Shown here piece after piece: positions 1 to 16,896 of a DNA stretch of 64,000 bases. The notes below the pieces were generated by a model that was not told where the DNA came from, did not search any database, and saw only the letters and a program-made list of their open reading frames with translations. Origin of the DNA: Calditrichia bacterium (lineage in GTDB: Bacteria; Calditrichota; Calditrichia; RBG-13-44-9; J075); the NCBI GenBank assembly GCA_050633245.1, contig JBOEGD010000032.1:1-64000 (forward strand), written 5' to 3'. How positions within the stretch are numbered: the first letter of the stretch is position 1; each line of letters opens with the position of its first letter. Made by a program: the position numbers and the translations under genes.

Positions 1-55
1 AGACTGCTCTTCGTTTATTCTCTCAAGACTATTCTTAGTCTAAAACATTTCTTTC

Positions 56-92
56 AGCGTCCTGTTTACCTTGGTAGACAGGACGCTTTTTT
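56..92 (+). terminator. Rho-independent terminator for an upstream + strand gene outside the window
   Basis: AGCGTCCTGTTTACC-TT-GGTAGACAGGACGCT stem (one G:U pair) followed by a T run. Confidence 0.75.
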
Positions 93-101
93 GTAGTCTA
101 T

Positions 102-141
102 AAAACAAGAAGAGCCGATCATCACAGATGATCGGCTCTTC
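102..141 (-). terminator. Rho-independent terminator downstream of the 216..2042 gene
   Basis: GAAGAGCCGATCATC-ACA-GATGATCGGCTCTTC perfect 15-bp stem, followed by TTGTTTT on the minus strand. Confidence 0.7.
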
Positions 142-215
142 TCTTGGGGATTATCGTACGGCTAAAACGGGATGGGTCGACATCCCGTTAGGGGTTCTCA
201 TACTTTAAAAGCGTC

Positions 216-2042
216 TTAATCATTTCCAGCCTGATTAATCTGCTCCAGCTTACGACGCTCGGCTTTTACCTGAGTTTTTAGCTTATACTTCTCTTTCTGC
301 AAACGCTTTACTTCATCCTGGGTCTTTTGAAGAGCCTTCACATTCTTCAGCTTCTGTGAAGAACGACGCAGTGTCTTCGCTTGTCCCAGCAAACGTTGTG
401 TAATCGCATCATCGGGTGTAATTTGGAGAACACTCTCATAATTACGAATGGCTAAATCGTATCTGCTGGATTCGATTGCGCTGGACGCCTTATCGTTATA
501 GTATTCGATGATTTGGCTTTTTAACTCGATTGCCGGCTGATGATCATCCTGAAGTTCTAAAACCTGACTTAGATAAAGAATCGCATTATCATTTGAAGGC
601 TTAAGGAATTGTTGCTTATCGAATGACTGATGTGCGCTTACCATCAAATCTTCAATCGAATTTCGATCGGAAATATCGTTACCAGAGGAGTTTGGAGTCT
701 CTTCCAATACCGGTTCATCCTCATTCTGAGAGACCGCGATATTGCGCTGGGTTGTTTCCTCTTCTGAAAGAGCGGGAACAACGGGTGGGTTCGTCGCAGT
801 CTGCTGAGTGGAGTTACCATTCAGTTGAGACATTACGGAATCGGACATGGCGCTTATTTTATCAAAAGAAAAATAAACTGCGGCAGCGACAAGTACAGTC
901 GGTATCAGCGTAATAAGTGCCAGTTTTGCAGAAATCGGCAGGCCGGTTCTGCGTGCTTTGGCTTGACTACGACGCTTTTTCGGTCGCTTTACATTTGCGC
1001 GCGAGGGTGACGCATCAGAGATTGCACCGTTCCGCTGCGCCGCACCATTAGGTTGGGGTGCGTGGTGTCCGTTTGACGAAGCAGGTCTATGAATACCGGG
1101 ATCGGTTGCTATCGGTTCAAAATCCTGTGATGCCGGGTCTTGTCCAAAGTCGGATGCCGCCGGAGGATCAAACGAAATGGGTTCATTGTCGAAACCCATA
1201 TCCATAGCTGTGGACTCTTTTGTGCTCTCTTCCAACGGACTCTTGGTAGGCTTACCGGTATTGAGATTTTGCTCAATCAGGTTCTCCAAAGAGCTTGCCG
1301 GTGTATCGTCAAACTCAAAATGCATATTGTTTGCAGAATCTTCCATTTCAAAGAACAGAGTTCCATCATCAGTTGTCTGAGCCTTTGGAGGCTTCGTTTT
1401 TGATGGTTTTGGCGGCTGCGGCTTTGGAGGTGCAGCTGGTCTTGGTGGCGCCGGGGGCTGCATAGGCATTGCCTGGCTAGGCGCAGGTTGTTGTGCTCGC
1501 GGACGTTGTTGCTGCGGTGGTTGCGGTCTTGGTGGCGCAGCTGGCCTTGCCTGAACAGCCGGCCTTGCCGGTGGTGCCGGTGGCCTTGCCTGAACAGCCG
1601 GTCTTGCCGGTGGTGCAATTGGTTGTTGCGGTCTCGGTGGAGCAGCAGGTCTTGCCGGAGCGGTAGCCTGAGGAGCAGGTCTTGCTGGAGCGGCCGGTCT
1701 TGCCGGTGGCTGCGGTCTTGGTGGAGCAGCAGGTCTTGCCGGTGGCTGCGGTCTTGGTGGAGCAGCAGGTCGTGCTTGAACTGGTGGTGCAACAGGTTGT
1801 TGCGGAGCAGGTTGCTCGAAGCCGGTACCACTTGGTAGTGGTTTAGGATTATTTCCACCTGATGTATTCACTGAGCCATTTGTATTGGCGGAACCATAGC
1901 TGCTCGGCTGATTCGCCGAATCCAGCATAATAACAGATTCCATTCCATGTAATGGACATATTTTATAAGGCAGTTTGCGTTTACATCTTGTGCAGTAATA
2001 TTCCTGCTTGTTGATCTTTTTGCCTGATTGGCCATACTGCAT
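216..2042 (-). CDS. Single-pass membrane protein: N-terminal CxxC-x8-CPxH Zn-finger-like motif, Pro/Ala/Gln-rich linker, TM helix, TPR-like helical domain, C-terminal coiled coil
   Basis: 608-aa ORF with AAGGAG RBS. YYCTRCKRKLPYKICPLH motif; PPRPQPPARPAA repeats; TM LALITLIPTVLVAAAVYFSF; TPR-like AIRNYESVLQITPDD. Confidence 0.75.
   Translation of the reverse strand: MQYGQSGKKINKQEYYCTRCKRKLPYKICPLHGMESVIMLDSANQPSSYGSANTNGSVNTSGGNNPKPLPSGTGFEQPAPQQPVAPPVQARPAAPPRPQPPARPAAPPRPQPPARPAAPARPAPQATAPARPAAPPRPQQPIAPPARPAVQARPPAPPARPAVQARPAAPPRPQPPQQQRPRAQQPAPSQAMPMQPPAPPRPAAPPKPQPPKPSKTKPPKAQTTDDGTLFFEMEDSANNMHFEFDDTPASSLENLIEQNLNTGKPTKSPLEESTKESTAMDMGFDNEPISFDPPAASDFGQDPASQDFEPIATDPGIHRPASSNGHHAPQPNGAAQRNGAISDASPSRANVKRPKKRRSQAKARRTGLPISAKLALITLIPTVLVAAAVYFSFDKISAMSDSVMSQLNGNSTQQTATNPPVVPALSEEETTQRNIAVSQNEDEPVLEETPNSSGNDISDRNSIEDLMVSAHQSFDKQQFLKPSNDNAILYLSQVLELQDDHQPAIELKSQIIEYYNDKASSAIESSRYDLAIRNYESVLQITPDDAITQRLLGQAKTLRRSSQKLKNVKALQKTQDEVKRLQKEKYKLKTQVKAERRKLEQINQAGND
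1420..1810 (-). repeat. Intragenic imperfect tandem repeats encoding a Pro-rich linker (about 36-bp unit, PPRPQPPARPAA)
   Basis: Recurring ggtcttgccggtgg and ggtcttggtggagcagcagg units on the + strand. Confidence 0.85.
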
Positions 2043-2402
2043 GTTAAACTCCTTTCTAGAATCCCCTGGAGGTGCTTAAATAAGAACGACTGATTACTCT
2101 TCCTTGAGCTGCCTGCCGGTTATCGACCCCTTCGATATACCTTGCGGCGAATATTCCATTGCCGTCGGAGATTTTTTCTTTACACACGAACAATTGACAG
2201 ATCGACCATTTCCATACTGTCTATTATTCGAGCGGTCCAGCTAATGCTCTAAGAGCCCATCCTGTGCATTTCTTTTACAACTCCGACGATGTTAAATCCT
2301 GCACTGAATGAATAATACTTTTGTGAATCATAGTTAACCGCGTTTTTCTGCGGTTCCGGCCACTAAATAGTTTCAAACTCATGCCAGTTATTACTATGAA
2401 CA

Positions 2403-2418
2403 TGCAATTTGCATTCCG
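2403..2418 (-). promoter_or_regulatory. Weak candidate sigma54 (-24/-12) promoter
   Basis: Minus strand CGGAATGCAAATTGCA has GG-N10-GC spacing and TTGCA at -12; about 360 nt upstream of the ATG at 2042. Confidence 0.3.
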
Positions 2419-2546
2419 TACGATTCGAAATACCATTGACCTAAAATAATTTCGCAATTTATTCGATGGTACTTGGGGACAGGATCACAATTCGATAAAG
2501 AAAAAATATGGAATGATTTTTGTACGGCGTTGGAAAAGAGGAGGAA

Positions 2547-3956
2547 CTACTTTAGGAGTAGTACTTCGAGAGCCTTAAAACGAATGGGTAAGCCGTTAAA
2601 TGTTGCCGGCTGGAATCGATAACGCATAAGAGTTTGCAGGGCATGTTGAGCATATCCAGGGCCGGGTAAACGGGAAATGATCTTTGCTTCCTGAATAAAA
2701 CCATCTGTTCCAACTATGCATTCAGCAATTACGTTGATTGATGACTTCAGACTGAGTTCTTTGGGAAGCTCTGCTTTTGGGCGAACCAAATAATGTTTTT
2801 TCCCTCCGTCAATGACACTCTCCTTGACAATTGGAGCTTTTTGTGAGGCTGGAATAACGGCATAACCCTTCTCAGCCGGCTCGGTTACTTTAGGTGTAAC
2901 CTCTTGTTCTATTGGGGCATTCGCGCTAAAGGATTCAGGTTGCTTTTCCTTTGATTTCAATGGTGCTTCCGCGCGACGTTCAGCAACCTGCTGATTTTGA
3001 ACGAATTTTTTGAGTTCTTCAATACGGCTTTTTACATATCCATCCTGAGGCGATATCTTTAGAATGCTTTTGTAAAGCTCAATGGCATTTTTATAGTCCT
3101 GCTTTCTCAGGGCTTCAGTTACCTGCTCTTGTAAGCCCTCCATAATAGTTCCTTTTAGCTTTAACGCTTCTGAGTAGTTCGGATAGTAATTAAGCACCTG
3201 CCCAAGATAAGCGACGGCACTTTCTTCCTGATCAGACATAACCTGTCCATTTTGAAACGCGAAGCGTGCTTTTTCTAATAAGGAGAATATCCGACCTTCT
3301 GAAGTGCTGAACTCACTTTCGAGCAAGCGAATTCGACCGTCAAGTGAAGCCAGTACCGGGTCTTCACTATAGTTCTCTTTGAATTGCTGATAATATTGCA
3401 GTGCTTCAGAGTAATTGCCATTGTTGTAAAGCGTTTCGGCAGTCGAGAAAAGAGTTGCGCGATCGTCATGCATATATTGATAGAGAAAATATCCTGCAGT
3501 ACTACCTGCAAAAAGAGCGAAGAGCAGGGAAATAAAAATCAGGCTTCTTCGAAGAGCAGCCGGATTTCGGCTTCTATTGTATTCATTGCTGCGATCAACA
3601 ATACGTATTCTTAATGGCGGTGGTTCTGTCGCTTGCTCTTCTTCTTCGTGATAGTAAAAGGCATTACTGTGAAAATTTTGTTCACTTCTGTCTGGTTGAC
3701 TTTTGCTGACAGCAAGGTCTCCAGCTTGATAATCATGTTCTTCCAGCGGTAACTGTCCCTGCGATTCGTTCATTACGTCCTCAACCATGCTCGCCCATGC
3801 GCTGCCATTATGTAGCGGATTTGCCGCAGGAGGAATGTAGGTTGAATCTTCTGCATCAACGACCAGAATGCCCTTTGTAAGGTGGATTGGGCACAATTCA
3901 TTGCTCATGAATTCACGACAATGGTTACAATAATACGAATAGTGCTGCTTTTTCAT
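2547..3956 (-). CDS. Membrane protein: CxxC-x8-CPxH Zn-finger-like motif, linker, TM, TPR repeats, C-terminal TonB_C-like domain
   Basis: ATG at 3956 (MKKQHYSYYCNHC) preferred over TTG at 3995. TPR GNYSEALQYYQQFKENY; C-terminus VIAECIVGTDGFIQEAKI...YRFQPATFNGLPI resembles TonB C-terminal domains. Confidence 0.75.
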   Translation of the reverse strand: MKKQHYSYYCNHCREFMSNELCPIHLTKGILVVDAEDSTYIPPAANPLHNGSAWASMVEDVMNESQGQLPLEEHDYQAGDLAVSKSQPDRSEQNFHSNAFYYHEEEEQATEPPPLRIRIVDRSNEYNRSRNPAALRRSLIFISLLFALFAGSTAGYFLYQYMHDDRATLFSTAETLYNNGNYSEALQYYQQFKENYSEDPVLASLDGRIRLLESEFSTSEGRIFSLLEKARFAFQNGQVMSDQEESAVAYLGQVLNYYPNYSEALKLKGTIMEGLQEQVTEALRKQDYKNAIELYKSILKISPQDGYVKSRIEELKKFVQNQQVAERRAEAPLKSKEKQPESFSANAPIEQEVTPKVTEPAEKGYAVIPASQKAPIVKESVIDGGKKHYLVRPKAELPKELSLKSSINVIAECIVGTDGFIQEAKIISRLPGPGYAQHALQTLMRYRFQPATFNGLPIRFKALEVLLLK

Positions 3957-4067
3957 AGCCCTGTTTATTCCCGTATCTGTTTTAGGTTTTACCAAACAGC
4001 TTTGTTCTTTTCGACAGCTCTGTTTTCAATACACAATTGACAGAGCTTGGCATTTGGCAAGAGAAAA

Positions 4068-4084
4068 AGCAAATACTGTTCCAA
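4068..4084 (-). promoter_or_regulatory. Candidate sigma54 (-24/-12) promoter
   Basis: Minus strand TTGGAACAGTATTTGCT versus consensus YTGGCACGNNNNTTGCW, exact GG-N10-GC spacing, about 110 nt upstream of the ATG at 3956. Confidence 0.6.
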
Positions 4085-4110
4085 TTTTTGAGGGGAGTAA
4101 ATAAGGATAG

Positions 4111-4140
4111 CGCTGCGATGGCCTGGGCGGTATCGCAGCG
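4111..4140 (-). terminator. GC-rich hairpin just after the lamin-tail protein stop, probable terminator
   Basis: CGCTGCGAT...ATCGCAGCG inverted repeat 11 nt past the stop codon; weak U tract. Confidence 0.45.
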
Positions 4141-4151
4141 CAAGAGGATGA

Positions 4152-6935
4152 TTATTTAATTAACGTCATCCGAATCGTTCTAAAGTAGTATCGAGATCGA
4201 AAGACAGCAAAATAAACGCCGCCTGCTACACTAACATTGCCATCAGTGCGCCCATTCCATTCAAGCTCATAAACCTGTGGATCCAGTCTGCCCTGATAAA
4301 GTGTTTTAATATGCTGTCCGATGCTGTTATAAATCGAAATGTTTACATCAAGAGCACTTTCATCTCCCAGGTTTGGGACATCGAAACGCAATCGGGTTGT
4401 CGGATTGAAGGGGTTTGGGTAAGCGTTGTATAGTGCAAATTTTGTTGGGAGAGTTTCATCCGTTCCCACCGGCTCAAGCAGTTGCGGCTTCGCCCGGCGG
4501 ATGCCGTGAGTAGTTCGAATCCCGGTTATGTCTACATCGATGAGTTTATACCAATATTCGGTTCCGTTAATAACTTGACGATCTCCGTAATCGTAATGCG
4601 TTTCTGTATTTGCACTGCCCTCGGCTTCAAGTTCTTTTTGTAGCACATAGTCTCCTTCCCGGTCTGTGCTGCGCCACACTTCAAAGGTAGAAGAATTTAC
4701 CTCAGATTCAGATGTCCAACTAACAATGACAACACCGTCTCCGGAGCCGGTTGTAAAGCTACTCAGCAAGACGGGTAAACCCTGGTCATTGCCAAGTGTT
4801 CCTGGCGAACCATTGTCTCCAGCTGTACCAATTACGTAATTTTCCTCGCGAATTGCCGAAGTACTCCAGTTGCTGCCAACTGAATTGTCTGTTTGAAAAT
4901 CCAGTAAAATCATAGATGCGCCGTTGGGGTCCGGAAAGGTGAGTCCGTTATCATAGGCTACTTCATCTATCGAAACGGTGCCGTCGACGAGGATAACCTC
5001 ATCGCTACCATTGGACAGAAAAAAGTTGGCGTAGTCGTAGTCTATGGGAACAAAGCCATTTCGTGCTAGTGCACTATCCGTTCCTAAAACCAGAAATTCT
5101 CCCGGCTGTATGATAAGCGGTTCACTTAATGGTGAGACAATAGTATGTGAGTCGAAATCATTGTCGCGAAGTATCCAGCCACTCAAATCGATTGCCTGGG
5201 CTGTTGTATTGTATAGCTCCAGCCATTCGCCGAATCCATCGGAGACAGCAGCAGGATTTTGCATTATCTCTGTAATAATAACGTCACCGGGAGAGGCCTG
5301 AGGTTGCCATGTGAAGCTTGCCTGTTCGGTAGACATCGGATTGCCGAGTATATCTTCAACATCGCCGATGGTAATTGTGTAAAGCGTGGATGTTGTTAGA
5401 ACGGGCACCGTCAAATGAACGATACTGGCGTTCGATCCATCGCGCGTGGCTGTTGTTGGGTTGCCGATCGAATTGTTGATTACATAATTCGATACATCCT
5501 GAGCCGTCGGTAAATTGACGTTCTCGTCGAACATAACGTCTATATTGATGGCAGAGGTTGCAGTAATACTTTTAATTGAAGGAGGATCGAGGTCAACAAT
5601 GCCAAAACCCGGTGTGCCCAGCGTGTCCGGGCCCAATCGCCAGTTAATTCCCAATTCATTGTCGAAGGTTACGTCAAGCAGCTCAATGGCAAATAGGCCC
5701 AAAAAATCGGGCATTACAGGCCAGTTGTTATTGCCGTTCTCATAAAACAGACTGTCGGATATTTGTGCATTCACGTCTTTCAATACAACAACGTCTGACT
5801 CCGAATCAAAATCGAAGAAGTAGTCGCCTACCACATTTCCAACACTTGGATAGTTGTATTGAAAATCACTCAGGTTATTGGTGATAACCATGAAGTCGTT
5901 GTTTTCAATAATTGTTCCATCAGGAATGCGAAAGCTACTGGTGCTGTCACATAATATCCATTGGCTCAGATCGACATCTTCTCCGGTGCCATTATATATC
6001 TCAACCCATTCGGCGGACTCTATTTCGTCATAAAAAATTTCATTGATTACAAGCTGCGGGACGTCTCCGGAATTATTTACCTGATAGGTATAGTACGTGC
6101 CGTTTGAGGTGTCTGGAGAAATATCGTTAAATCCTGTGCCATCTGCTGCATACACATAGTATTTAACGATTGTTCCATCGGGTTGCGGTGGAATCTCTGC
6201 GCTGTAGATATCGCCACTGGTATTAGACATCGTAGTAAATGTAAAACCGCTACCGACATTATAGAATACGCGTGCCGTATCAATGCTGGTATCGTCCGTA
6301 AGTGTTGCAGTAATTTGCACGGCATCTGAGGAAGTAGGTATGAGCGGGCTTTGCGATACATTGTTAACTTCCGGCGCCTCATTGGGGTCAAATACCGAAT
6401 TCTGGCTTCCCGGCGTTCCACCGATCGCTCCGACTCCGGTTGATGCGAGCCAGTTGTTGCCATCAATGTTGTCGTACGTTGGATTGATTAATTCCAGGCT
6501 TGGACCAAACCCATCAGGACTGCCGCTACCATTCGGCCATGGTGCAATATCATCGTATCGCACGAAATCCAGGGTGTTAAATGACGTGTCGAAAAGCCAA
6601 ACGTTTTCACCATTATTGTTCAGGTTGCCAAAGTCCCACTGCAGGTCGGCGTCAAAACCATAGAAATTACGAAAAGCGGCACTGTCAACGCAAATAACGA
6701 AGTAGTCACTTGCAGCGATAGTTGTACCAGCAGGAAATGTAATATTGACGCCGGAGGTTGAGTAACCTCCTATATTCACATCGGCTGATGACCTATTGTA
6801 AAACTCAATAAACTCGGTGGTATCTATACCGGCTTCGAGCGGATTGTAGTTAATTTCATTTATAACAATTTGGGCGGAAAGGGATGTTGCAAAAAGTAAC
6901 GTACATAGCGATACAAAAACGTAGCGTTTCCACAT
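4152..6935 (-). CDS. Secreted lamin-tail-domain (LTD x3) and Ig-like protein with C-terminal YPNPFNP/FlgD-Ig sorting domain
   Basis: ATG at 6935 after GAGGAG; signal peptide MWKRYVF...SLSA. Three LTD starts (IVINEINYNP, LVINEIFYD, VIITEIMQNP), each ending in GTPG/GSPG; LPVLLSSFT motif; NAYPNPFNPTT. Confidence 0.85.
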   Translation of the reverse strand: MWKRYVFVSLCTLLFATSLSAQIVINEINYNPLEAGIDTTEFIEFYNRSSADVNIGGYSTSGVNITFPAGTTIAASDYFVICVDSAAFRNFYGFDADLQWDFGNLNNNGENVWLFDTSFNTLDFVRYDDIAPWPNGSGSPDGFGPSLELINPTYDNIDGNNWLASTGVGAIGGTPGSQNSVFDPNEAPEVNNVSQSPLIPTSSDAVQITATLTDDTSIDTARVFYNVGSGFTFTTMSNTSGDIYSAEIPPQPDGTIVKYYVYAADGTGFNDISPDTSNGTYYTYQVNNSGDVPQLVINEIFYDEIESAEWVEIYNGTGEDVDLSQWILCDSTSSFRIPDGTIIENNDFMVITNNLSDFQYNYPSVGNVVGDYFFDFDSESDVVVLKDVNAQISDSLFYENGNNNWPVMPDFLGLFAIELLDVTFDNELGINWRLGPDTLGTPGFGIVDLDPPSIKSITATSAINIDVMFDENVNLPTAQDVSNYVINNSIGNPTTATRDGSNASIVHLTVPVLTTSTLYTITIGDVEDILGNPMSTEQASFTWQPQASPGDVIITEIMQNPAAVSDGFGEWLELYNTTAQAIDLSGWILRDNDFDSHTIVSPLSEPLIIQPGEFLVLGTDSALARNGFVPIDYDYANFFLSNGSDEVILVDGTVSIDEVAYDNGLTFPDPNGASMILLDFQTDNSVGSNWSTSAIREENYVIGTAGDNGSPGTLGNDQGLPVLLSSFTTGSGDGVVIVSWTSESEVNSSTFEVWRSTDREGDYVLQKELEAEGSANTETHYDYGDRQVINGTEYWYKLIDVDITGIRTTHGIRRAKPQLLEPVGTDETLPTKFALYNAYPNPFNPTTRLRFDVPNLGDESALDVNISIYNSIGQHIKTLYQGRLDPQVYELEWNGRTDGNVSVAGGVYFAVFRSRYYFRTIRMTLIK

Positions 6936-7094
6936 AGGCAGCTCCTCGATATTACGGCGATGATGTAAGAACCCAATGACAAATAAGCGTGTCCCTGGCG
7001 TCGGACGATGCAGGGAATAAGTCAATTTCCCGTGTTAACGCTTTATCTGTGTGATGTCTGAAACAAATGGGAAGAGCTGTTTATAAAAAGTGGG

Positions 7095-7562
7095 TTACCA
7101 ATCTTTAAATGGATGTTTAACAAGATTGGCGTTGTAGTAGCGTGGATCGTCGGTGACTTCTTCTCCAACCCATTCAGGAAGTGTGATTTTCTGGTCTTCA
7201 GATTTCAATTCAACTTCAGCGATAATCAGACCGTCATTGTCTCCGTAAAACTCGTCGATCTCCCAGATGAGGTTGTCTATTTTTATTTCGAAACGCGTTT
7301 TATCAATAAGTGGTGTTTTACAAAGCGAATTGAGCATTTCTTCCGCATCCTTGCGAGGAATGCGGTATTCATATTCAAGCCGTGTTGTTGCGTTAACCTT
7401 TGCCTTAATCGTCAAAAACGCTCTTCTTCCTGCTATGCGAACGCGAACAACGCTGGAGGTGTCGTTTTTAATATAGCCCTGTTTGTAGCGCTTGCCTTTT
7501 GCCATTGTGCGCCAATTGTCGTTCTTTAGAAGAAATTTACGTTCAATTTCCAGTGCCATCAT
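7095..7562 (-). CDS. CYTH-domain (triphosphate tunnel) protein
   Basis: N-terminal EIERKFL (ExExK) motif, RVRI...LTIK, EYEY, WEIDEF, IAEVEL. Confidence 0.9.
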   Translation of the reverse strand: MMALEIERKFLLKNDNWRTMAKGKRYKQGYIKNDTSSVVRVRIAGRRAFLTIKAKVNATTRLEYEYRIPRKDAEEMLNSLCKTPLIDKTRFEIKIDNLIWEIDEFYGDNDGLIIAEVELKSEDQKITLPEWVGEEVTDDPRYYNANLVKHPFKDW

Positions 7563-7618
7563 TACTCCACTTTGTTTACCAAATAGATTTGAGTAAGACT
7601 ATCAAAGAGACTTTGGGT

Positions 7619-9775
7619 CTATTGCAATTTTTCAATACACCATACGGCATCTTCGGTCCTGACAAAAAGATTTCTTCCCAGAGGTGCCAGGGAAGCAGTA
7701 ATCTTACCGGGGAGTTGATTTTTGCTCACCAGCTCATAATCGGTTCCTGCCCGGATGATCTGGGTAATACCATTGTTATTTGTAAAGTAGATGTTGCCAT
7801 TTACAGCAATGGGGGATGAATAATAGCGCCCCGGAGCGAGGCGCTCTCTCCAGAAAATGTGTCCATTTTGAGAATCAATGCAGATTGCATGGCCATTATC
7901 TGAAACCATAAAAAGAAGGCTATTGTAAAAAACCGGTGAGGCGGTATTTGGGCCTCTGCTACCCAAATTAACTTCCCAGATTTTGCAGTCCTTATCACCT
8001 CGCATAATACCTGCAAGATCCAAAGCGACTACTCCAGATTTCCACGAAAGATATAAAATGTCTTCTTCAGCGATTACGGTAGTAACAGTTTCACCGGAAT
8101 AGTTAACAGGTGTTGGGTATTGTGCAAGCCTTTTGCCGTCGGCAGGAGAAAAAATATTCAAAACTTTCCTTCCTCCTCCGCTCCAGTCAACGATGATTTC
8201 TCGTCCTTGAAAAGTTGTTATCAAAGGAGTCCTGTGCTCACCATGAGGACTTTTCCATGGAGATAAATCTGTCTTCCAAGTGCTTTCACCTGTTAAACGG
8301 TTAATTGCTGTAATATATGGAGACTCAGACATTCCGCTCAATATGATTATGTGGTCCCCTGCGAACATTGGTGATGCGCCAATGCCGTGAATTCCTTTGA
8401 AAGGAAGGTTGGTGTTTGTCCATAGAATATCTCCAGAATAGCTGTAACAGATTAATCCAGACGTACCAAAATAAGCATAAACTCGTTCCCCGTCAATAAG
8501 GGCTGTCGGAGTTGCAGGTGAATTCAAATGGGTGCGGTTCTCGGGTCGGTCGGTGATCCCACTTTTTTGCCAAATGACTTTACCATTAGACCGATCCAGA
8601 CAAACAACCCCTCTTTTCATACCTGTATCTGTGTTGGCATAGTTGGCCTGAATAAAACTGAGTGCTGCAATAGTTAGAATTGTTGGGGAAAACCATTTGT
8701 TTAGAGGTGAATCTATTGGTTTGGTGCTGTTTTTTATATACAGATATAGCCAAAGCAGAAAGCCTATATTAATGAGGAAAAGATACCAGGGATATGAAAG
8801 GGCCGGATCCAACAAGTGAAAAACCTGATCGGTAAGAGACAAGGATGGATCGATAAGTTGACTATTGCCCTGAGTCAATGCTGCGTAGCTCTGTTTCAAA
8901 AAATTGATAAGAAATATTGAGCCCAGGCCGCTAAGCCCAAATAAAAACATCATTGATTGGGTTAGGTTGCGATGCTTTGCAATTTTGCTTTCCTTGAAGC
9001 GTGTTTTCTGCTTGTTTCCATTTCTTCGATATGGAAACAGCAGCAGTAAACCAGTTAAAGCGATGAGAAGGCATGGAATTATCATGCGAGTTAACGTTAT
9101 AATTCGAATAGGTAGGACAAAGAAATAGTCAGGACTCGGTCGGTTAAACAGTAAAAAACCGGCCCAAAATATGAGAAATAAACCCGCTCCGGTTTTCCAA
9201 TAAGATCTTTTGTCGAGAAAATTAATGATGAGCAGACAGGAAAAAGCAACGACTACTCCAGAATGAAACCAGATATTGAATCGACTAATCAGGCCAGTCC
9301 TTGTAAAGCCTTCAGGAAGCCAATGTGAGAAAAAAAGTGAGTAGAAAAAGATTCCCAGGAAGAACCAAAAAGCATGAGATGTTAACAGGCCCGGGTTATT
9401 TTCCACAAGCTTTGCTGTTTGCTTGCGAGAATAAAATACAGTTGAAAGGAACAATAAGGCTGCTAAAATTGCGACCAGAACAGTAATTATGTTTCCTGTT
9501 GCTGTTTGCTCTGTAGTATTCCAGGCAGCTGTAATAAATACCTTTTCTTTACTGATAACAGGTGATGAATGACCCGCCCCTTGGATAACTGTAGACCAAG
9601 TGATATTTGTAGTGTCTGACCACTCCGTCGGTACATTTTCCGATGAACTTTGTCCTTGATACCGTAATCCGCGCCAACCGCGCCATTCTTCAGTTTGAGC
9701 ATGCAGGGTATTGCTAATTAATAATATGAGTAAGCTAAACTTGATTATTTGATAAAAAAGCTTAATAGGAGTCAT
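7619..9775 (-). CDS. PQQ-like beta-propeller repeat protein with a large multi-TM insertion
   Basis: ATG at 9775 after GAGGGG; signal peptide; WRGWRG...GHSSPVI start; blade motifs CLDRSNGKVIW, AINRLTGESTW, CIDSQNGHIFW; about 300-aa hydrophobic insert. Confidence 0.8.
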   Translation of the reverse strand: MTPIKLFYQIIKFSLLILLISNTLHAQTEEWRGWRGLRYQGQSSSENVPTEWSDTTNITWSTVIQGAGHSSPVISKEKVFITAAWNTTEQTATGNIITVLVAILAALLFLSTVFYSRKQTAKLVENNPGLLTSHAFWFFLGIFFYSLFFSHWLPEGFTRTGLISRFNIWFHSGVVVAFSCLLIINFLDKRSYWKTGAGLFLIFWAGFLLFNRPSPDYFFVLPIRIITLTRMIIPCLLIALTGLLLLFPYRRNGNKQKTRFKESKIAKHRNLTQSMMFLFGLSGLGSIFLINFLKQSYAALTQGNSQLIDPSLSLTDQVFHLLDPALSYPWYLFLINIGFLLWLYLYIKNSTKPIDSPLNKWFSPTILTIAALSFIQANYANTDTGMKRGVVCLDRSNGKVIWQKSGITDRPENRTHLNSPATPTALIDGERVYAYFGTSGLICYSYSGDILWTNTNLPFKGIHGIGASPMFAGDHIIILSGMSESPYITAINRLTGESTWKTDLSPWKSPHGEHRTPLITTFQGREIIVDWSGGGRKVLNIFSPADGKRLAQYPTPVNYSGETVTTVIAEEDILYLSWKSGVVALDLAGIMRGDKDCKIWEVNLGSRGPNTASPVFYNSLLFMVSDNGHAICIDSQNGHIFWRERLAPGRYYSSPIAVNGNIYFTNNNGITQIIRAGTDYELVSKNQLPGKITASLAPLGRNLFVRTEDAVWCIEKLQ

Positions 9776-9868
9776 GACATATCCCCTCGAGTTTAAGGAT
9801 TCTTCAAGCATGGTTATTTAAATAAATGAGGGGAATAAAGAGTAACGATATGTTTGGTAATATCCAAA

Positions 9869-10915
9869 CTAAACGAAGCAGTAGCTGCCCGTCTTGCGTA
9901 GAGTTGCATATGCTGTTGCGCCGGGCCTAAGTGCTTTTGATGATAAATAATTCGCCAGGAAAAGAGTACCATCTGCTGTTCTAAGCACGACTTCTGTAAA
10001 GCTGCCCTGGAAGCTGGTGCTAATGACTATGCCTTCAGCTGACGGTTTGGAAGATGGTTTATTAACCAGAACCTCAAGTGCATCAGGGCGTAACATGAGT
10101 TTTTGTCCGTGCCCGAAAGCGCTACTACCTTGCGGTAAGATACCAAAAGGTGTGTGGATTTGATGGTTAATTATGTCGACCGAAATGAGGTTTATTTTAC
10201 CAAAGAAACGTGCAACGTACTCATTTGCGGGGCAGTTATAAATCACGTCTGGTGGTGCTATTTGCTCCAGGTTACCGCTTCGGATTACCGCTATTTCATC
10301 GGCAATTGCCAGGGCATCGCGGGTATCGTGAGTTACCAAAATAGCGCTTATACCGGATGATTTCAGGATGTCGTGAATTTCTGCCCGAACGCTGGCCTTT
10401 AAGGCTTCATCCAGATTGCTGAATGGTTCATCCAGAAGCAAGAGTGCCGGATTTGGAGCTATGGAACGCGCTAATGCAACACGCTGCTGTTCGCCGCCGC
10501 TCAATTCAAACGGGTAGCGGGCTCCATAGCCTTCCAATCGTGTTAAACTTAACATTTCCTGGACGCGTTTATGTTTCTGCTTCTTAGCGAATTTCTGTAG
10601 ACCATAGCCAATGTTTTGTGAGACTGTAAGATGTGGAAAAAGAGCATATTCTTGAAAGACCAGTGCAATGCCGCGCTTCTCCGGCGGCATAAATAAATGG
10701 TCGTCGCAAACAAGTTGATCTTTGATGTGAATTGAACCGTGATCAGGAACTTCCAACCCTGCAATCATGCGTAGTAATGTTGTCTTTCCGCTACCGCTAT
10801 CGCCAACCAGCGCAAGAAGTGTTTGGCCATTTAGCGTTAGCGTCAGGTCGTTTACCGCTAGTTCTTTCGCGGATGGATAACGTTTGGACACGGATTGTAT
10901 GCTTAGAATAGACAT
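9869..10915 (-). CDS. fbpC: Fe3+ ABC transporter ATP-binding subunit
   Basis: Walker A GDSGSGKT, LSGGEQQRVALAR, LLLDEPFSNLD; operon context; probable start MSILSIQ. Confidence 0.9.
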   Translation of the reverse strand: MSILSIQSVSKRYPSAKELAVNDLTLTLNGQTLLALVGDSGSGKTTLLRMIAGLEVPDHGSIHIKDQLVCDDHLFMPPEKRGIALVFQEYALFPHLTVSQNIGYGLQKFAKKQKHKRVQEMLSLTRLEGYGARYPFELSGGEQQRVALARSIAPNPALLLLDEPFSNLDEALKASVRAEIHDILKSSGISAILVTHDTRDALAIADEIAVIRSGNLEQIAPPDVIYNCPANEYVARFFGKINLISVDIINHQIHTPFGILPQGSSAFGHGQKLMLRPDALEVLVNKPSSKPSAEGIVISTSFQGSFTEVVLRTADGTLFLANYLSSKALRPGATAYATLRKTGSYCFV

Positions 10916-10958
10916 GGCAAAATATGGGGTTCTTTCTGCAATAAGCAAAAGGGTTTCT

Positions 10959-12605
10959 TTAACGTCTGTTCACCATGCGGTTCATAAACAGCACCGGAAT
11001 TAGGCTGGTTGCAACAATCATTAAAGCAACAGGAGCCGCTTCTCGGACGGCTTCTTCTTTAGCTGCGAGTTCGTAAGCCCTGGTAGCCAGCGTACTAAAA
11101 TTGGGAGGAGAAAGAAACAGCGTTAGCGGTAGCTCTTTTATTACATCGACAAAGACAAGTGTGGCTGCGGCCAGCAAGGCGCTTTTCAAAAGTGGAATGT
11201 TTATTTTGATGAGCGTATTCATCGGTGAATGACCAAGTATACGCGAGGCTTCATCCAGGTTGCGGCAGTTTTTTTCGAACGCAGCATCAATGGGATTATA
11301 GGCGAGCGCCAGAAAGCGGACTACCAGTCCGAAGGCAACTGCTGCAATAGTACCGCTGAAGATTAGACCGGTTTGAACATCCAGTACTTTCATTGTGTTA
11401 TGAATGCGATGATCCAGCCATAAAAAAGGAGTCATTACGCCGACGGCAATAACCACACCGGGAACGGAATAGCCAAGCATTGATGCTTTAGATATCCATT
11501 TGGTAAGGCGCGATCTGGATAGCTGCGCGGCATATAGAATGATGGTTGAGAAGAGTAGAATAGCGATTGCACAGATGAGCGCGAGCGATAAGCTGTTCCA
11601 TATTAAGGTAAGAATGTTAAATGATGCTGCAGTCCAGTTGGTCTTTATACTCCACAGCAGTAACTGGAAAGCGGGGATAATAAATCCAAATAGCAGTGGA
11701 AGTGCGCAAAAAGCTGTGGCAAATACCATCTTTAACCCAGTGAGCTGAATGCGGCTAATGGGACGAAACGTGTCTTTTGCGCTGACGTATCGACTTTTGC
11801 CACGCTGAACATATTCCAGGGTTATCACGAACCCTACAAAAAGCATTAGTAATGATGACAGGCGAATCGCGGCATCAACATCATCCATTCCAAACCATGC
11901 TTTGAAGATGCCAGTCGTAAAAGTGTCTACACCATAATATGCCGAAACGCCATAGTCGTTTAATGTCTCCATTATTACCAACATTAGTCCACCGGCAATT
12001 GCCGGACGGGCCAGCGGCAGTGCTATTTGCCAAAATACTGTGAGTGGAGCTTTGCCAAATGTACGAGCTACTTCCAGATAGCTGGATGACTGTTGTAAGA
12101 ACGATGCTCTGGCAGAAAGGTAAACGTATGGATAAAGCGTGAGCGTTAATATAAAGCTGGCTCCGCCAGGCGTAGAAATGCCATCACGCAGAAAAAAGGA
12201 TACACCCAGAGCCGTTGCCGTTTGTTGAACCGGCCCAAAATAATCCAGCATTCCGGCGTAGGTGAAAGCAGATATGTAGGCTGGCATTGCCAGCGGCATC
12301 ATGAGCGCCCATTCCAGAAACGTTTGGCCGGGAAAGCGATAGCGCACCACCAGCCAGGCTGTTGATACGCCAATTAACAATGTAAATACGCCAACGATGG
12401 TGGTTAAAAGCAACGTATTGATAATGTATGAAGTTAGAAGGGTATTTACGATGTGTTGCCAAGCTGCGCCGGTGGGCTTTAATAAGCCACCGACGATGAC
12501 GAGTGTTGGTAACGATAGTAGCGCTACCAATACAGCAGAGACAATTACCCAACTATTCAGAGTTCGCACTCTAAACAATTTAAGCAGTGCAGGAGGAAAG
12601 AGCAT
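10959..12605 (-). CDS. fbpB: Fe3+ ABC transporter permease (two-lobed)
   Basis: Multi-TM protein with two EAA-like loops (YLEVARTFG, LDEASRILG) and KELPLTL. Confidence 0.9.
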   Translation of the reverse strand: MLFPPALLKLFRVRTLNSWVIVSAVLVALLSLPTLVIVGGLLKPTGAAWQHIVNTLLTSYIINTLLLTTIVGVFTLLIGVSTAWLVVRYRFPGQTFLEWALMMPLAMPAYISAFTYAGMLDYFGPVQQTATALGVSFFLRDGISTPGGASFILTLTLYPYVYLSARASFLQQSSSYLEVARTFGKAPLTVFWQIALPLARPAIAGGLMLVIMETLNDYGVSAYYGVDTFTTGIFKAWFGMDDVDAAIRLSSLLMLFVGFVITLEYVQRGKSRYVSAKDTFRPISRIQLTGLKMVFATAFCALPLLFGFIIPAFQLLLWSIKTNWTAASFNILTLIWNSLSLALICAIAILLFSTIILYAAQLSRSRLTKWISKASMLGYSVPGVVIAVGVMTPFLWLDHRIHNTMKVLDVQTGLIFSGTIAAVAFGLVVRFLALAYNPIDAAFEKNCRNLDEASRILGHSPMNTLIKINIPLLKSALLAAATLVFVDVIKELPLTLFLSPPNFSTLATRAYELAAKEEAVREAAPVALMIVATSLIPVLFMNRMVNRR

Positions 12606-13618
12606 TAACGCCAGCCAACCTCATCAAAAATACGGACAGCTGCCGGATTCAATTCCCCAAGACGGTTAATAGACTGATTGTCCGGCTTGAAGCTTCCCCA
12701 TGAGTTAAGCAGATCGGAAGGAGGAATGCCGGGCTTAGCTGGATATTCGTAGTTTCCACTGCCAAATAACTTTTGAGCTTCGTCAGCGACCAAAAACTCA
12801 AGCAGCTTTACAGCATTGTCCTTATTCTTGGAATGTTTCGTAACCGCTGCACCACTAACGTTTATATGTGTGCCGCGGTCTGTTTGATTCGGGAAGAATA
12901 TTTTCACCTTCTCGGCTACTGCACGCTCTTCTTCATTTTTCGAATTGGCCAGCTTTCCGAGATAATAGGTGTTTACAATGGCAATATCGCCAATGCCTGC
13001 TGCAACAGCTTTCATTTGGTCGCGGTCATTGCCGCTCGGGGTACGAGCCATGTTGGCTACAATCCCGGCAGCCCAGGATTTAGCTGTGCTATCTCCATGG
13101 GCTGCAATCATGGAAGCCAGCAAGCTTTGATTGTAAATGTTTTGCGAAGAACGGATAAGAATGCGGCCTTTCCATGCTTCATCGGTAAGGGCCTCATAAG
13201 TCGACAGGTCTTCCGGGTTTACTCGCTCTGGTGAATACGCAATTACCCTTGCGCGTCTTGTCAGGCCAAACCAGGAGTTCTCAGCATCTCTCAGGTGGGA
13301 CGGAATAGCAGTCTCTAGAACAGCGGAACGTACTGTCTGGAGCAAGCCTTTTCCCTTGGCGCGCTGTAAACGTCCGGCATCTACAGTAATCAGAAGGTCT
13401 GCCGGTGATAACTCCCCTTCATCTTCCAAGCGCTTAATCAGCTCATCTGCTGAGGCAGTAACAACATCAACCTTAATGCCGGTCTGCTCTTCGAAGGACT
13501 TATAAATCGTTTTGTCGGCTTCGTAGTGACGATGTGTATAAACCGTAACGCTCTCTTCTTTTTTGGTACAACCGAAAAGCAGCGCTATTGCTATGGTCAG
13601 AAGAATTACTTTATGCAT
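12605..13618 (-). CDS. fbpA: Fe3+ ABC transporter substrate-binding lipoprotein (FbpA/FutA family)
   Basis: ATG at 13618 after GAGG; lipobox LFGC; YTHRHY, TVDAGRL, NTYY iron-ligand tyrosines. Confidence 0.92.
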   Translation of the reverse strand: MHKVILLTIAIALLFGCTKKEESVTVYTHRHYEADKTIYKSFEEQTGIKVDVVTASADELIKRLEDEGELSPADLLITVDAGRLQRAKGKGLLQTVRSAVLETAIPSHLRDAENSWFGLTRRARVIAYSPERVNPEDLSTYEALTDEAWKGRILIRSSQNIYNQSLLASMIAAHGDSTAKSWAAGIVANMARTPSGNDRDQMKAVAAGIGDIAIVNTYYLGKLANSKNEEERAVAEKVKIFFPNQTDRGTHINVSGAAVTKHSKNKDNAVKLLEFLVADEAQKLFGSGNYEYPAKPGIPPSDLLNSWGSFKPDNQSINRLGELNPAAVRIFDEVGWR

Positions 13619-13632
13619 TTTTGCCTCATATA

Positions 13633-13706
13633 AGTTCAAAGTTCAAAGTTCAAAGTTCAGAGTTCAAAGTTCAGAGTTCAGAGTTCAAAGTTCAAAGTTC
13701 AGAGTT
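13633..13706. repeat. Heptamer tandem array (AGTTCAR) x10
   Basis: Ten full AGTTCAA/AGTTCAG units plus AGTT, between ftsX and fbpA. Confidence 0.95.
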
Positions 13707-13771
13707 GTAAAAGGGAAGGGTAGTTAGGCAATCAGTCTCCTTGTCTCTCGCTCTGTGTTCCGTGTTCTGCC

Positions 13772-14626
13772 TTAATATTTCAAATACTTCCCAACGGATA
13801 TATAACTGCCAAGTAGGCCCAGGCTAATCCCGATAAGAATGAGCAGCGCATAAAACTCCAAAGGGACATTTACAACAGTCGCAAAGAGTGTTTGTACCGC
13901 ATCGCTGATTAGCCAAAGAATTCCACAGGCAAGAAGGCTACCAATTAATCCCTGAAGAACACCTTCAACTATAAATGGCCCTTTTATAAAAAAACGATTG
14001 GCTCCAACAAGGCGCATAATTTCAATAACAGTATGCCGTGAATGAATTGTTAAGCGAATCGTATTGTAAATGAGCATGGTTGTAATAAAGAAGATGGCCG
14101 CTCCCAGAAAAGACGCCGTTAGCAAGCCAATCCAAAAGTAGTCGTTCATCAATTTCACAAAGTTTTGTTGATAATCTACCTCATCTACTTCAACAAACGA
14201 CTCCAGCTCCTGCTTCATTCGCTCAACCTGTTCGGTGCCGGAATAGGTCGGCTTTAACGCGACACGGAATGAAGGGGGCAGCGGATTATCGCCTAAAACC
14301 TTCATTAAATCCTGTCCAAAATCCTTTTCAAATGCTTGTAATGCCATTTCCTGAGTTACGTACTGGGTAGAGCGAACAGCTGGAAAGTTTTCTATGCGCC
14401 GCTGTAGTGCTTTCACATCGCCTTCCGAAAGTGACGGATCGATAAACACTTCCAAAAATATCTTGTTGTATACCCGATAGAAATTGTCCGAGAGTTGCTG
14501 GGCAACCAGGCCGAAAATTCCAATCAACAAGAGCGAAAGCATAACGGTAACAATCGTAATTGTTGCCGACAGCCGTGCGCGCTTAAAACCTGCGAGCCCT
14601 TCTCTAATCATAAAAAATATGTTCAT
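13772..14626 (-). CDS. ftsX: Cell division permease FtsX
   Basis: DNPLPPSFRV, IYNTIRLTI, EIMRLVGANRFFIKGPFIVEG; follows ftsE. Confidence 0.93.
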   Translation of the reverse strand: MNIFFMIREGLAGFKRARLSATITIVTVMLSLLLIGIFGLVAQQLSDNFYRVYNKIFLEVFIDPSLSEGDVKALQRRIENFPAVRSTQYVTQEMALQAFEKDFGQDLMKVLGDNPLPPSFRVALKPTYSGTEQVERMKQELESFVEVDEVDYQQNFVKLMNDYFWIGLLTASFLGAAIFFITTMLIYNTIRLTIHSRHTVIEIMRLVGANRFFIKGPFIVEGVLQGLIGSLLACGILWLISDAVQTLFATVVNVPLEFYALLILIGISLGLLGSYISVGKYLKY

Positions 14627-14749
14627 AAATATTTCTCGTCTTCCCGGCGGGAAGTGCTTACAAACGTTTTGTTGCGCAATTAATATAGAACGCAGAAAGA
14701 AGAATCGGATTGTAATTAATAATCAAAAAAACTTATTGATCAGGAATGG

Positions 14750-15436
14750 TTATTGATTCTGATGCTCAATCTGATCAACGGTAATTTCTTTATAGAATCG
14801 ACCATTTTCCATAACCAGCGTATGATGTGGGAATTGCCGAATTAATTCATAGTTATGGGTTGCCATTAGAACGGCAGTGCCGCTGCGATTAATGCCTGCG
14901 AGCAACTGCATTATTTCTCCGGCAACCTGCGGGTCAAGATTCCCCGTCGGCTCATCTGCAAGTAGAATGTAGGGTTCATTTACCAATGCTCGGGCAATTG
15001 CAACGCGTTGTTTTTCGCCACCAGAAAGATTCCCCGGCATTACATAGCGTTTATGATGCAAACCAACTCGTGATAGTACCGCCAGCACCTTCGGTTTAAT
15101 ATCTCGACCTGGTGTGCCAATCACGCGCAGAGCAAAAGCGACGTTTTCGAATACGTTACGATCTTCCAGTAGCTTAAAGTCTTGAAAAATGACGCCGACT
15201 TTTCGACGCAGTAGCGGGATTTGTTTTTGGCGAATACGCGACGAGTTGAATTGAGCAACAACGACATTGCCCTTGTCGGGAATAACATCCATATAGATAA
15301 GTCTGAGGAGGGTTGTTTTACCGGCTCCAGTCTTGCCGATTAGATATAGAAAGTCGCCTTTCTTGATCTTCAGATTAACGTCCTCAAGTACGGGGCGTTT
15401 ACTGAGAGATACGGACACATTATAAATTTCAACCAT
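14750..15436 (-). CDS. ftsE: Cell division ATP-binding protein FtsE
   Basis: Probable start MVEIYNV; GKTGAGKT, GVIFQDFKLL, LSGGEKQR, ADEPTGNLD. Confidence 0.92.
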   Translation of the reverse strand: MVEIYNVSVSLSKRPVLEDVNLKIKKGDFLYLIGKTGAGKTTLLRLIYMDVIPDKGNVVVAQFNSSRIRQKQIPLLRRKVGVIFQDFKLLEDRNVFENVAFALRVIGTPGRDIKPKVLAVLSRVGLHHKRYVMPGNLSGGEKQRVAIARALVNEPYILLADEPTGNLDPQVAGEIMQLLAGINRSGTAVLMATHNYELIRQFPHHTLVMENGRFYKEITVDQIEHQNQ

Positions 15437-15462
15437 ACTGCTGATCCCGGATCCGAAGTTCC

Positions 15463-16233: not shown

Positions 16234-16277
16234 AAAATGTCCTGCAGCCCGAAGGCCAGGTAAATCAGTGAGGTACT

Positions 16278-16547
16278 TTAGGAATCAGAATCTTTTTTAG
16301 TCGTCGGCTTGCTTTTCTTCTCAACAGGCTTCGACTCGCTCTTCTTTGTACTCGTACTACCACTTTTATTTGTGTAATCGGTAATGTAGAAGCCCGATCC
16401 TTTAAAAATCAGCCCGGTACCACCACTAATAAGTCGCTCTACTTTGCCTTTGCAAACCGGACATTTAGTTAGCGCCTTTGCAGAGATGCTCTGAAACTCG
16501 TCGAACTTATGCCCACAGTCTTTGCAGAGGTATTCATATGTCGGCAT
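16278..16547 (-). CDS. FmdB-family zinc-ribbon protein
   Basis: MPTYEYLCKDCGH...CPVC...FKGSGFYITDY with a Lys/Ser tail; AAGGAG RBS. Confidence 0.92.
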   Translation of the reverse strand: MPTYEYLCKDCGHKFDEFQSISAKALTKCPVCKGKVERLISGGTGLIFKGSGFYITDYTNKSGSTSTKKSESKPVEKKSKPTTKKDSDS

Positions 16548-16879
16548 TGTGTCTCCTTAGTAAATAATAACAATATAGCCAATATAGCGCGCTGACCCTA
16601 AATGTTACTTGACAGCTTTGCTATTTGGATAGCTTTGAAATTTAACAGTTTTTTGAGCTGTTGCAATCGCTTTTTGTAATGGTAAACGATTGCTCGATAA
16701 CGCTGTATACGGCAAAAGTGTTAACTTTGTTAGCGTTTTTACGCTGGTTTACAGGTGAAAAGGATTCCATTTCTTAGCACTATAAAATTCTTTTTGCGTT
16801 GTTTAAGTCCTTTGTTAATAAAGCCTTGTGGCTTTTGTTCTCTTTCTCGCCTTACAGTTGTTGGCACAGTTTGGCTGTG

Positions 16880-16896
16880 CAGGCACCACAGTTGCA
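16880..16896 (+). promoter_or_regulatory. Candidate sigma54 promoter
   Basis: CAGGCACCACAGTTGCA: GG-N10-GC with GGCAC and TTGCA, about 105 nt before the ATG at 17003. Confidence 0.5.

What the first reader, a model, noticed from the sequence alone, without database searches (positions are those of the whole stretch)
216..3956. Tandem paralogues with a shared Zn-finger-linker-TM-TPR plan, one ending in a TonB_C-like domain
Seen: both proteins begin with identically spaced YYC-x2-C-x8-CP-x-H (YYCTRCKRKLPYKICPLH and YYCNHCREFMSNELCPIH), then a low-complexity linker and one TM. Their periplasmic helical blocks align (NAILYLSQVLELQDDHQPAIELK / SAVAYLGQVLNYYPNYSEALKLK; AIRNYESVLQITPDD / AIELYKSILKISPQD). 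They differ at the C-terminus: coiled coil versus TonB_C-like. Established: Myxococcus GltJ/AgmX has an N-terminal Zn ribbon, a long linker, a TM and TonB_C, and links cytoplasmic regulators to the gliding machinery. Inference: this is an uncharacterised trans-envelope scaffold pair (motility, polarity or signalling) rather than an ordinary TonB.
Basis: partly seen in the sequence, partly recalled or inferred. Interest (0 to 1): 0.7.

Follow-up and report, generated by a model that had tools for sequence, protein, structure and literature searches.

The report
Zinc-ribbon membrane adaptors ending in TonB
Two neighbouring genes belong to an undescribed, expanded family of single-pass membrane proteins in one family of Calditrichota bacteria; they likely link an outer-membrane partner (through a TonB-type tip, which one of the two has lost) to an unknown cytoplasmic partner (through a predicted zinc-binding head), and a role in gliding is untested.

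Summary
Observation confirmed. Both genes encode CxxC-x8-CPxH head, linker, one TM (N-in) and a shared TPR-like block. The C-terminus of 2547-3956 is a TonB_C fold (Pfam over cut-off; AlphaFold/Foldseek top hit E. coli TonB). The pair is not a recent duplicate. Gene 216-2042 is the orthologue of a gene found in 15 of 15 family relatives that carries coiled coil AND TonB_C; here TonB_C is lost. Gene 2547-3956 is a rarer paralogue, not adjacent in the other two genomes holding both. The head is confined to one Calditrichia family (16 of 16 genomes; 1 weak hit in 70 others), which has many paralogues with swappable tips (TonB_C, YfiR-like, none). Ten of 15 other TonB_C-bearing paralogues sit directly before a porin or TonB-dependent receptor gene. 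Best reading: a trans-envelope adaptor or receptor, not an energiser. It fails GltJ membership (no GYF, different zinc motif, outside the glt cluster). MglA and a GltG-like gene are near-universal in the phylum (84 and 85 of 86), so co-occurrence is uninformative. The scan had no earlier look-alike finding. New variant of the ZitP/GltJ plan; interest 0.4.

The parts
216..2042 (-). Gene P0001, 608 aa: type A member without TonB_C and without the first TPR hairpin
   Evidence: same truncation in P0007; 29 of the 31 listed differences at 258-720 in a related strain are third-codon positions
1917..2000 (-). Zinc-ribbon head CxxC-x8-CPxH (residues 15-42), basic type A variant
   Evidence: three short strands predicted in the orthologue model; 94% identical to P0007
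1383..1856 (-). Pro/Ala-rich repetitive cytoplasmic linker (residues 63-220)
   Evidence: 39% Pro; DNA repeats D1/D2
1263..1289 (-). Short conserved linker motif LxxLIExxL, predicted helix
   Evidence: 10 of 20 type A sequences; helix 191-231 in the orthologue model
867..923 (-). Single transmembrane helix of P0001 (374-392), predicted N-in
375..656 (-). Periplasmic TPR-like block with LxPxxDNA motif (463-556)
228..374 (-). Type A-specific coiled coil (557-605)
   Evidence: scores 55-128 against 15 type A proteins, at most 43 against all other rows with a score; 92% identical to P0007
107..143 (-). Intrinsic-terminator-like hairpin (17 pairs) after the P0001 stop
   Evidence: no TonB_C in any of three frames downstream
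2547..3956 (-). Gene P0002, 469 aa: type B member, zinc head-linker-TM-TPR-block-TonB_C
3852..3935 (-). Zinc-ribbon head CxxC-x8-CPxH-x-TKGIL (8-35), type B variant
   Evidence: 95-97% identical to P0003/P0004 over residues 1-40
3486..3542 (-). Single transmembrane helix of P0002 (139-157), predicted N-in, no His
3312..3464 (-). BamD/YbgF-like TPR hairpin
   Evidence: PF13174 34.9 bits over cut-off; TIGR02795 E 3e-6, below cut-off
3009..3290 (-). Periplasmic TPR-like block (223-316)
2550..2843 (-). TonB_C domain with family-specific VxExxIDGG extension and no YP motif
   Evidence: 88-89% identical to P0003/P0004

Best explanation
Both genes encode single-pass inner-membrane proteins of a family expanded in one Calditrichia lineage, which likely act as trans-envelope adaptors or receptors: the TonB-fold tip is predicted to dock on an outer-membrane barrel or its periplasmic partner, and the zinc-ribbon head likely binds an unknown cytoplasmic protein. 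The TPR/helical part would be a rigid spacer. P0002 is a complete adaptor. P0001 is the family's core member that has lost its tip but kept the head, TM and coiled coil under selection, so it would serve as a membrane tether or co-subunit for the cytoplasmic partner. Shown: architecture, fold of the tip, orthology, distribution, gene neighbours. Inferred: zinc binding, topology, all binding partners, and signalling rather than energising.
For: Ends conserved, middle not: head 94-97% and TonB_C 88-89% identical to close homologues, against 30-35% for the periplasmic linker and 45-52% for the block of P0002. 54 of 61 family members pulled carry an N-terminal Cys/His ribbon, 32 of 61 a TonB_C; tips are swappable: YfiR/HmsC-like PF13689 in L098, an unassigned domain in L084/L089/L090, or none. 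Of 15 TonB_C-bearing members outside types A/B (14 plus L076, whose block scored under my 55-bit filter), 10 have an outer-membrane barrel gene next on the same strand: 3 TonB-dependent receptors, 7 porin-like genes each followed by a small PstS-like gene. In G000 two homologues of that small gene sit between a similar porin-like gene and a sensor-like gene (read by eye), and no same-strand sensor follows in the 7 loci. The same block follows the TM of Ser/Thr kinases P0044/P0046, and Atlas rows show TPR+TonB_C behind kinase, BlaR1 and receiver domains (leads only). All 5 non-flagellar ExbB/TolQ genes of G000 have their own TonB/TolA/GltG-like neighbour.
Against: The barrel adjacency belongs to other paralogues: 0 of 18 TonB_C-bearing type A/B genes has a recognised barrel gene next (2 have no next gene in the locus), and serA follows 6 of 15 type A genes. 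The 10 loci come from related genomes and are not independent. Porin calls are weak (Pfam E 1e-3 to 1e-7 for 4 of 7; the rest by homology; one is split in two ORFs). Adjacency to TonB-dependent receptors fits an energiser equally well. G000's own FCB-type TonBs also lack the TM His, so that feature is weak. No binding, localisation or expression data. The family tree is poorly resolved (9 of 58 branches starred, quick tree only).
Confidence: 0.5

Rival explanations
1. Accessory TonB energiser: the TonB_C pulls on TonB boxes of receptors using an ExbBD motor encoded elsewhere; the zinc head only regulates or positions it.
For: True TonB_C fold, best matches are receptor-bound TonB structures; 3 members lie directly before TonB-dependent receptor genes; NCBI names one homologue 'energy transducer TonB' (P0039, automatic name).
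Against: 31 of 32 lack the YP motif present in G000's ordinary TonBs (its role in TonB-box binding is recalled); 0 of 61 TMs with His; 29 of 61 members have no TonB_C, and type A lost or eroded it in P0001/P0007 and, with a different remnant, in P0011/P0019/P0020; every ExbB/TolQ gene in G000 has its own partner; TonBs generally lack a cytoplasmic domain (PMC8262864, passage).
Confidence: 0.2
2. GltJ-like coupler: the head or linker binds MglA/MglB and the TonB_C binds the GltD-like TPR protein of the Agl-Glt core cluster, giving this family surface motility or a polar machine.
For: Same order of domains as GltJ (PMC11135422, PMC11761067, passages); G000 has MglA/MglB and a gltD/E-like, aglR/Q/S-like, gltG-like cluster whose GltG-like protein has only about 40 residues before its TM; GYF_2 and TIGR02098 were not found in G000, so the slot may be open; a short linker motif is conserved in 10 of 20 type A proteins.
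Against: MglA in 84 of 86 and NF033768 over cut-off in 85 of 86 phylum genomes, against the zinc head in 16 plus one weak hit; no NF033761/NF033768 hit for either protein at E<=1; no GYF; none of 19 orthologue loci in a glt or mgl cluster; other NF033768 proteins exist in G000 that could fill the TonB-like sites; the core complex is not sufficient for gliding (PMC3169522, passage).
Confidence: 0.15
3. Polar landmark or envelope scaffold like ZitP or FimV: the head binds a cytoplasmic polar hub and the TPR/coiled coil recruits pilus, flagellar or division proteins; TonB_C is secondary.
For: ZitP precedent (PMC5182063, passages); TonB_C dispensable in P0001 and in types D/E, which recur at fixed positions (before rpoZ; divergent from guaB); G000 has PilT-family and flagellar genes; members lie near ftsE/ftsX in 4 genomes.
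Against: Different zinc spacing and no DUF3426; no pilus or flagellar gene next to any member listed; does not explain the porin and receptor operons.
Confidence: 0.15

Closest known systems
GltJ/AgmX of Myxococcus xanthus (NF033761)
   Same: Cytoplasmic N-terminal zinc finger, long disordered linker, one TM, periplasmic TonB-CTD-like C-terminus (PMC11135422, PMC11761067, passages).
   Different: No GYF domain; three Cys plus His with 8-residue spacing; folded TPR block and coiled coil in the periplasm, where GltJ is disordered; TonB_C is not of the NF033768 type; not in a glt cluster; many paralogues; P0001 has no TonB_C.
ZitP of Caulobacter crescentus
   Same: Bitopic protein with an N-terminal cytoplasmic zinc finger and a separable periplasmic module (PMC5182063, passages).
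   Different: ZitP has CXXC-X19-CXXC (PF13719) and DUF3426; here CxxC-x8-CxxH and TPR block plus TonB_C.
TonB / TolA energy transducers (PF03544)
   Same: One TM and a C-terminal TonB_C fold (1u07, 6i97, 2gsk, 2k9k).
   Different: 130-370 cytoplasmic residues with a zinc head; helical rather than Pro-rich periplasmic spacer; no YP motif, no TM His; not beside exbBD; tip often absent or swapped.
Receptor-type Ser/Thr kinases and BlaR1/receiver fusions with periplasmic TPR block, some with TonB_C (unnamed clusters)
   Same: Same LxxPxxxNA helical block after a TM (P0044, P0046, P0052, P0062); similar TPR+TonB_C periplasmic part in Atlas rows.
   Different: The cytoplasmic side here has no enzyme, only a zinc ribbon and a linker.

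Membership tests
GltJ/AgmX | Match to NF033761 or to the AgmX/PglI C-terminal domain NF033768 | tested here: not met
   No hit for P0001 or P0002 at E<=1; positive control: the GltG-like protein of G000 scores 96 bits on NF033768.
GltJ/AgmX | Cytoplasmic GYF domain after the linker | tested here: not met
   No GYF family in the Pfam scan at E<=1; the orthologue model has no confident beta domain between head and TM. The genome-wide PF14237 search was blank but so were its controls.
GltJ/AgmX | N-terminal zinc finger of the ZitP/AgmX type | tested here: not met
   Motif is CxxC-x8-CxxH; TIGR02098 finds 0 in G000 while ringing in 2 controls; no zinc_ribbon_4/5 hit among 17 members.
GltJ/AgmX | One TM and a periplasmic TonB-CTD-like C-terminus | tested here: met
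   Met by P0002; P0001 has the TM but no TonB_C.
GltJ/AgmX | Encoded in the glt gene cluster | tested here: not met
   The glt-like cluster is on contig C2, the pair on C32; none of 19 orthologue loci holds glt/agl genes.
GltJ/AgmX | Zinc finger binds MglB, linker binds MglA-GTP | not testable with these tools
   Needs a binding assay.
TonB energy transducer | C-terminal TonB_C fold | tested here: met
   P0002 only: PF03544 over cut-off, Foldseek 1u07, VIA Z 9.5, rmsd 2.2, 86 aligned, profile hits to TonB chains E 1.5e-4.
TonB energy transducer | N-terminal signal anchor, no cytoplasmic domain (PMC8262864, passage) | tested here: not met
   TM starts at residue 139 and 374.
TonB energy transducer | YP motif before the first strand, and His in the TM (both recalled) | tested here: not met
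   YP absent in 31 of 32; His in 0 of 61 TMs. Two ordinary TonBs of G000 also lack the His, so that half is weak.
TonB energy transducer | Energised by ExbBD, binds TonB boxes | not testable with these tools
   Not beside exbBD; function needs experiment.
ZitP | Bitopic with N-terminal cytoplasmic zinc finger | tested here: met
   (zinc binding itself is inferred)
ZitP | CXXC-X19-CXXC and periplasmic DUF3426 | tested here: not met
Zinc-binding anti-sigma (ZAS) | Hx3Cx2C motif (recalled) and an adjacent ECF sigma gene | tested here: not met
   Ligand order is C, C, C, H; no sigma gene next to the pair.

The most novel reading that the evidence does not exclude
This family is an undescribed class of one-chain trans-envelope receptors: a TonB-fold or YfiR-like tip reads the state of a porin or TonB-dependent receptor, and a zinc ribbon replaces the kinase or chemoreceptor output, handing the signal to a cytoplasmic switch such as the phylum's MglA/MglB GTPase. 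Tipless members such as P0001 would be co-receptors or decoys that tune it.
Probability: 0.2. Interest if true: 0.75.

Novelty: new variant of a known kind. Interest (0 to 1): 0.4.

Why it matters
If right, it shows that the zinc finger-linker-TM-periplasmic tip plan of GltJ and ZitP arose again from other parts and was multiplied in one Calditrichota family, and that TonB_C is reused there as a docking tip. It gives small, testable domains (a 30-residue head, a 97-residue tip) and named candidate partners.

Tried and rejected
Complex prediction of the zinc head (alignment A1) with two MglB copies and Zn: no answer, score 0.01 against a mark of 0.32, controls not folded; it is not evidence either way. 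No RNA holder listed for 200-4200. Rfam: 0 matches in window 1-20000. Frameshifted TonB_C after P0001: rejected. Recent tandem duplication: rejected on zinc-head and coiled-coil scores; the tree was too weak to decide and no AU test was run. Co-occurrence with MglA and GltG-like genes: run, but non-discriminating. Fold of the zinc head: no PDB sequence hit under E 0.19, only sub-threshold Pfam/NCBIfam hits (RpoE'' E 0.001-0.01, Nop10, HMPTM ribbon), Atlas scores about 0.8 (lead only); it was not folded alone, and Foldseek on the 690-residue model listed only TPR and TonB chains. Four of the 26 hits of the whole-library head search (P0024, P0027-P0029) were unrelated repeat proteins and were dropped. 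Promoter scan: at chance level. Literature searches that found no description of the family. No supplements were read; those of PMC11135422 (figs S3, S4, on zinc-ribbon architectures) could bear on novelty.
Full report
Observation. The two ORFs are real: 216-2042 (P0001, 608 aa) and 2547-3956 (P0002, 469 aa), both on the minus strand. They share the CxxC-x8-CPxH head (E 6e-6) and a 101-residue helical block (28%, E 2e-10). Each has one hydrophobic helix with the basic side before it, so the head and linker are predicted cytoplasmic. P0002 ends in PF03544 above the cut-off. An AF2 model of its periplasmic part (mean pLDDT 85.6, pTM 0.47, 18 sequences) has TPR-type helices, a disordered linker and a TonB_C fold whose best matches are TonB C-terminal domains. 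P0001 ends after a coiled coil, followed by a 17-pair hairpin; no TonB_C follows in any frame, a homologue ends at the same place (P0007), and 29 of the 31 listed differences in its 3' part in a related strain are at third codon positions (only the 40 best-supported of 219 differences were shown).

Lineage and distribution. A relative's contig is titled Calditrichia. A profile of the head (17 sequences) hits 16 of 16 genomes of the window's family and 1 of the other 70 genomes of the phylum, weakly (E 6e-4); the profile was built from this family, which favours that result. In 1.84 billion cluster representatives it gave 26 hits. Of the 20 whose sequences I read, 16 are family members or fragments and 4 are unrelated repeats; P0004 and P0007 were read separately and the other four carry the block. 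The head is therefore lineage-restricted as far as these searches reach.

What the pair is. In 15 of 15 relatives one gene of 595-706 aa carries head, Pro-rich linker, TM, TPR, block, coiled coil and TonB_C in one chain (type A); 9 of the 15 have an extra CxxC-x10-CxxC ribbon in front. P0001 is its orthologue: head identity 13-19 of 28 to type A against at most 10 to others, coiled-coil score 55-128 against at most 43. It has lost TonB_C and the first TPR. P0002 shares its head variant (TKGIL/TAGIL) and its lack of coiled coil with genes in G003 and G011 (type B). In those two genomes types A and B are not neighbours (different contigs; 515 kb apart). The adjacency holds in a related strain (one contig spans 1744-4500), and type A (G007, G009) and type B (G003) each lie near ftsE/ftsX, as the pair does here, so an old tandem is possible. 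A working pair is not shown.

The wider family. Family genomes give 3 to 12 matches each to the periplasmic profile, some of them to TonB_C-only proteins. I fetched part of them: 61 members passed the block filter; 54 have an N-terminal Cys/His ribbon, 32 a TonB_C, none a His in the TM. G000 has five. Tipless types recur before rpoZ and divergent from guaB. Tips vary: TonB_C, YfiR/HmsC-like, an unassigned domain, or none; P0011, P0019 and P0020 show a second erosion of TonB_C in type A. Among 15 TonB_C-bearing members outside types A/B, 10 are followed on the same strand by an outer-membrane barrel gene: 3 TonB-dependent receptors and 7 porin-like genes with a small PstS-like gene behind. None of the 18 TonB_C-bearing type A/B genes and none of the 29 TonB_C-less members has a recognised barrel next; several of those neighbours have no Pfam family and 5 members have no next gene in the locus. 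In G000 the small PstS-like genes lie between a porin-like gene and a sensor-like gene (read by eye). The block itself is not private: it follows the TM of Ser/Thr kinases and occurs in other proteins, and Atlas rows show TPR plus TonB_C behind kinase, BlaR1 and receiver domains (leads).

Mechanism. Conservation sits at the two ends: head 94-97%, TonB_C 88-89%, periplasmic linker 30-35%. With the swappable tip and the barrel neighbours, this points to an adaptor or receptor that joins an outer-membrane partner to a cytoplasmic one (0.5). This is inference; no partner is shown, and the barrel evidence comes from paralogues, not from the two genes here. An accessory energiser is the main rival (0.2): the fold and three receptor neighbours fit, but YP is missing in 31 of 32, the tip is dispensable, and all 5 non-flagellar ExbB/TolQ genes of G000 have their own partner. 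The two motifs used here (YP, TM His) are recalled, and two ordinary TonBs of G000 lack the His too.

The gliding link. G000 has MglA/MglB and an Agl-Glt core-like cluster, PilT-family and flagellar genes. But MglA is in 84 of 86 and NF033768 over cut-off in 85 of 86 phylum genomes, so the co-occurrence says nothing about a family present in 16. Luciano et al. (PMC3169522, passages) state that the core complex alone is unlikely to drive motility. GltJ (PMC11135422, PMC11761067, passages) has a zinc finger, linker, GYF, TM and TonB-CTD-like domain; these proteins fail on GYF, zinc-finger type, family models and gene position. They may still work like GltJ (0.15) or like ZitP (PMC5182063, passages; 0.15).

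Novelty. No Pfam or NCBIfam family covers the architecture or the head. Six literature searches found no description; the library lacks most subscription papers. The Caldithrix abyssi genome paper (PMC5317091, passages) mentions flagella, type IV pili and TonB systems only. PMC8262864 was read in passages; PMC5182065 was seen as a listing only. The scan holds no look-alike finding. The plan is known and the parts are common; the family, its expansion and its operons are new. Verdict: new variant of a known kind, interest 0.4.

Noticed in passing
G000:C2:149766-160400 (L056, L059): Agl-Glt core-like cluster (866-aa and 1597-aa TPR proteins, a 124-aa secreted protein, AglR-like, two ExbD-like, GltG-like with NF033760 E 2e-27) directly after the atp operon. 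NF033768 is over cut-off in 85 of 86 Calditrichota genomes; no paper linking this phylum to Agl-Glt or MglA was found.
   Followed up: partly
G000:C7:40892-44052 and C20:139656-141356 (L048, L049); L063-L065: Exported beta-helix + TonB_C proteins; two of the three in G000 carry the same ExxLDGG extension as this family's tip, and all three keep YP. Similar ~490-aa proteins match widely in the phylum and may be the source of the tip.
   Followed up: partly
G000:C1:420267-421268 and C16:75096-76859: Two further NF033768 (AgmX/PglI tail) proteins outside the glt cluster: one with a TM and linker, one behind a repeat region that looks like a beta-propeller.
   Followed up: no
G000:C34:17526-26135 and C4:14315-17819: Porin-like gene(s) + small PstS-like gene + sensor-like gene, the arrangement whose sensor is missing in the type C loci.
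   Followed up: partly
L098:126-1880 and L098:2016-3023; L084, L089, L090: A second tandem of family members in G005, the first ending in a YfiR/HmsC-like domain; three other members end in an unassigned ~100-aa domain.
   Followed up: partly
window 3753-3877 (runs X1, X2): A related strain carries a second 125-bp stretch like the 5' part of P0002 about 5.4 kb upstream; it is absent from G000.
   Followed up: partly
window 4152-16233: Upstream neighbours on the same strand: secreted protein with three lamin-tail domains and FlgD-like tail, CYTH protein, multi-TM PQQ-like propeller, an ABC transporter, ftsX/ftsE-like genes and a methyltransferase-like gene.
   Followed up: no
window 19294-23384: Three same-strand genes (400, 317, 640 aa) with no Pfam family at E 1e-4.
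   Followed up: no
window 9-92: 84 bases nearly identical to the start of contig C8, and the first 22 bases match the end of C21: a collapsed repeat at the contig break.
   Followed up: no
L074:6671-7769: The porin-like gene behind a type C member in G004 is split into two overlapping ORFs.
   Followed up: no
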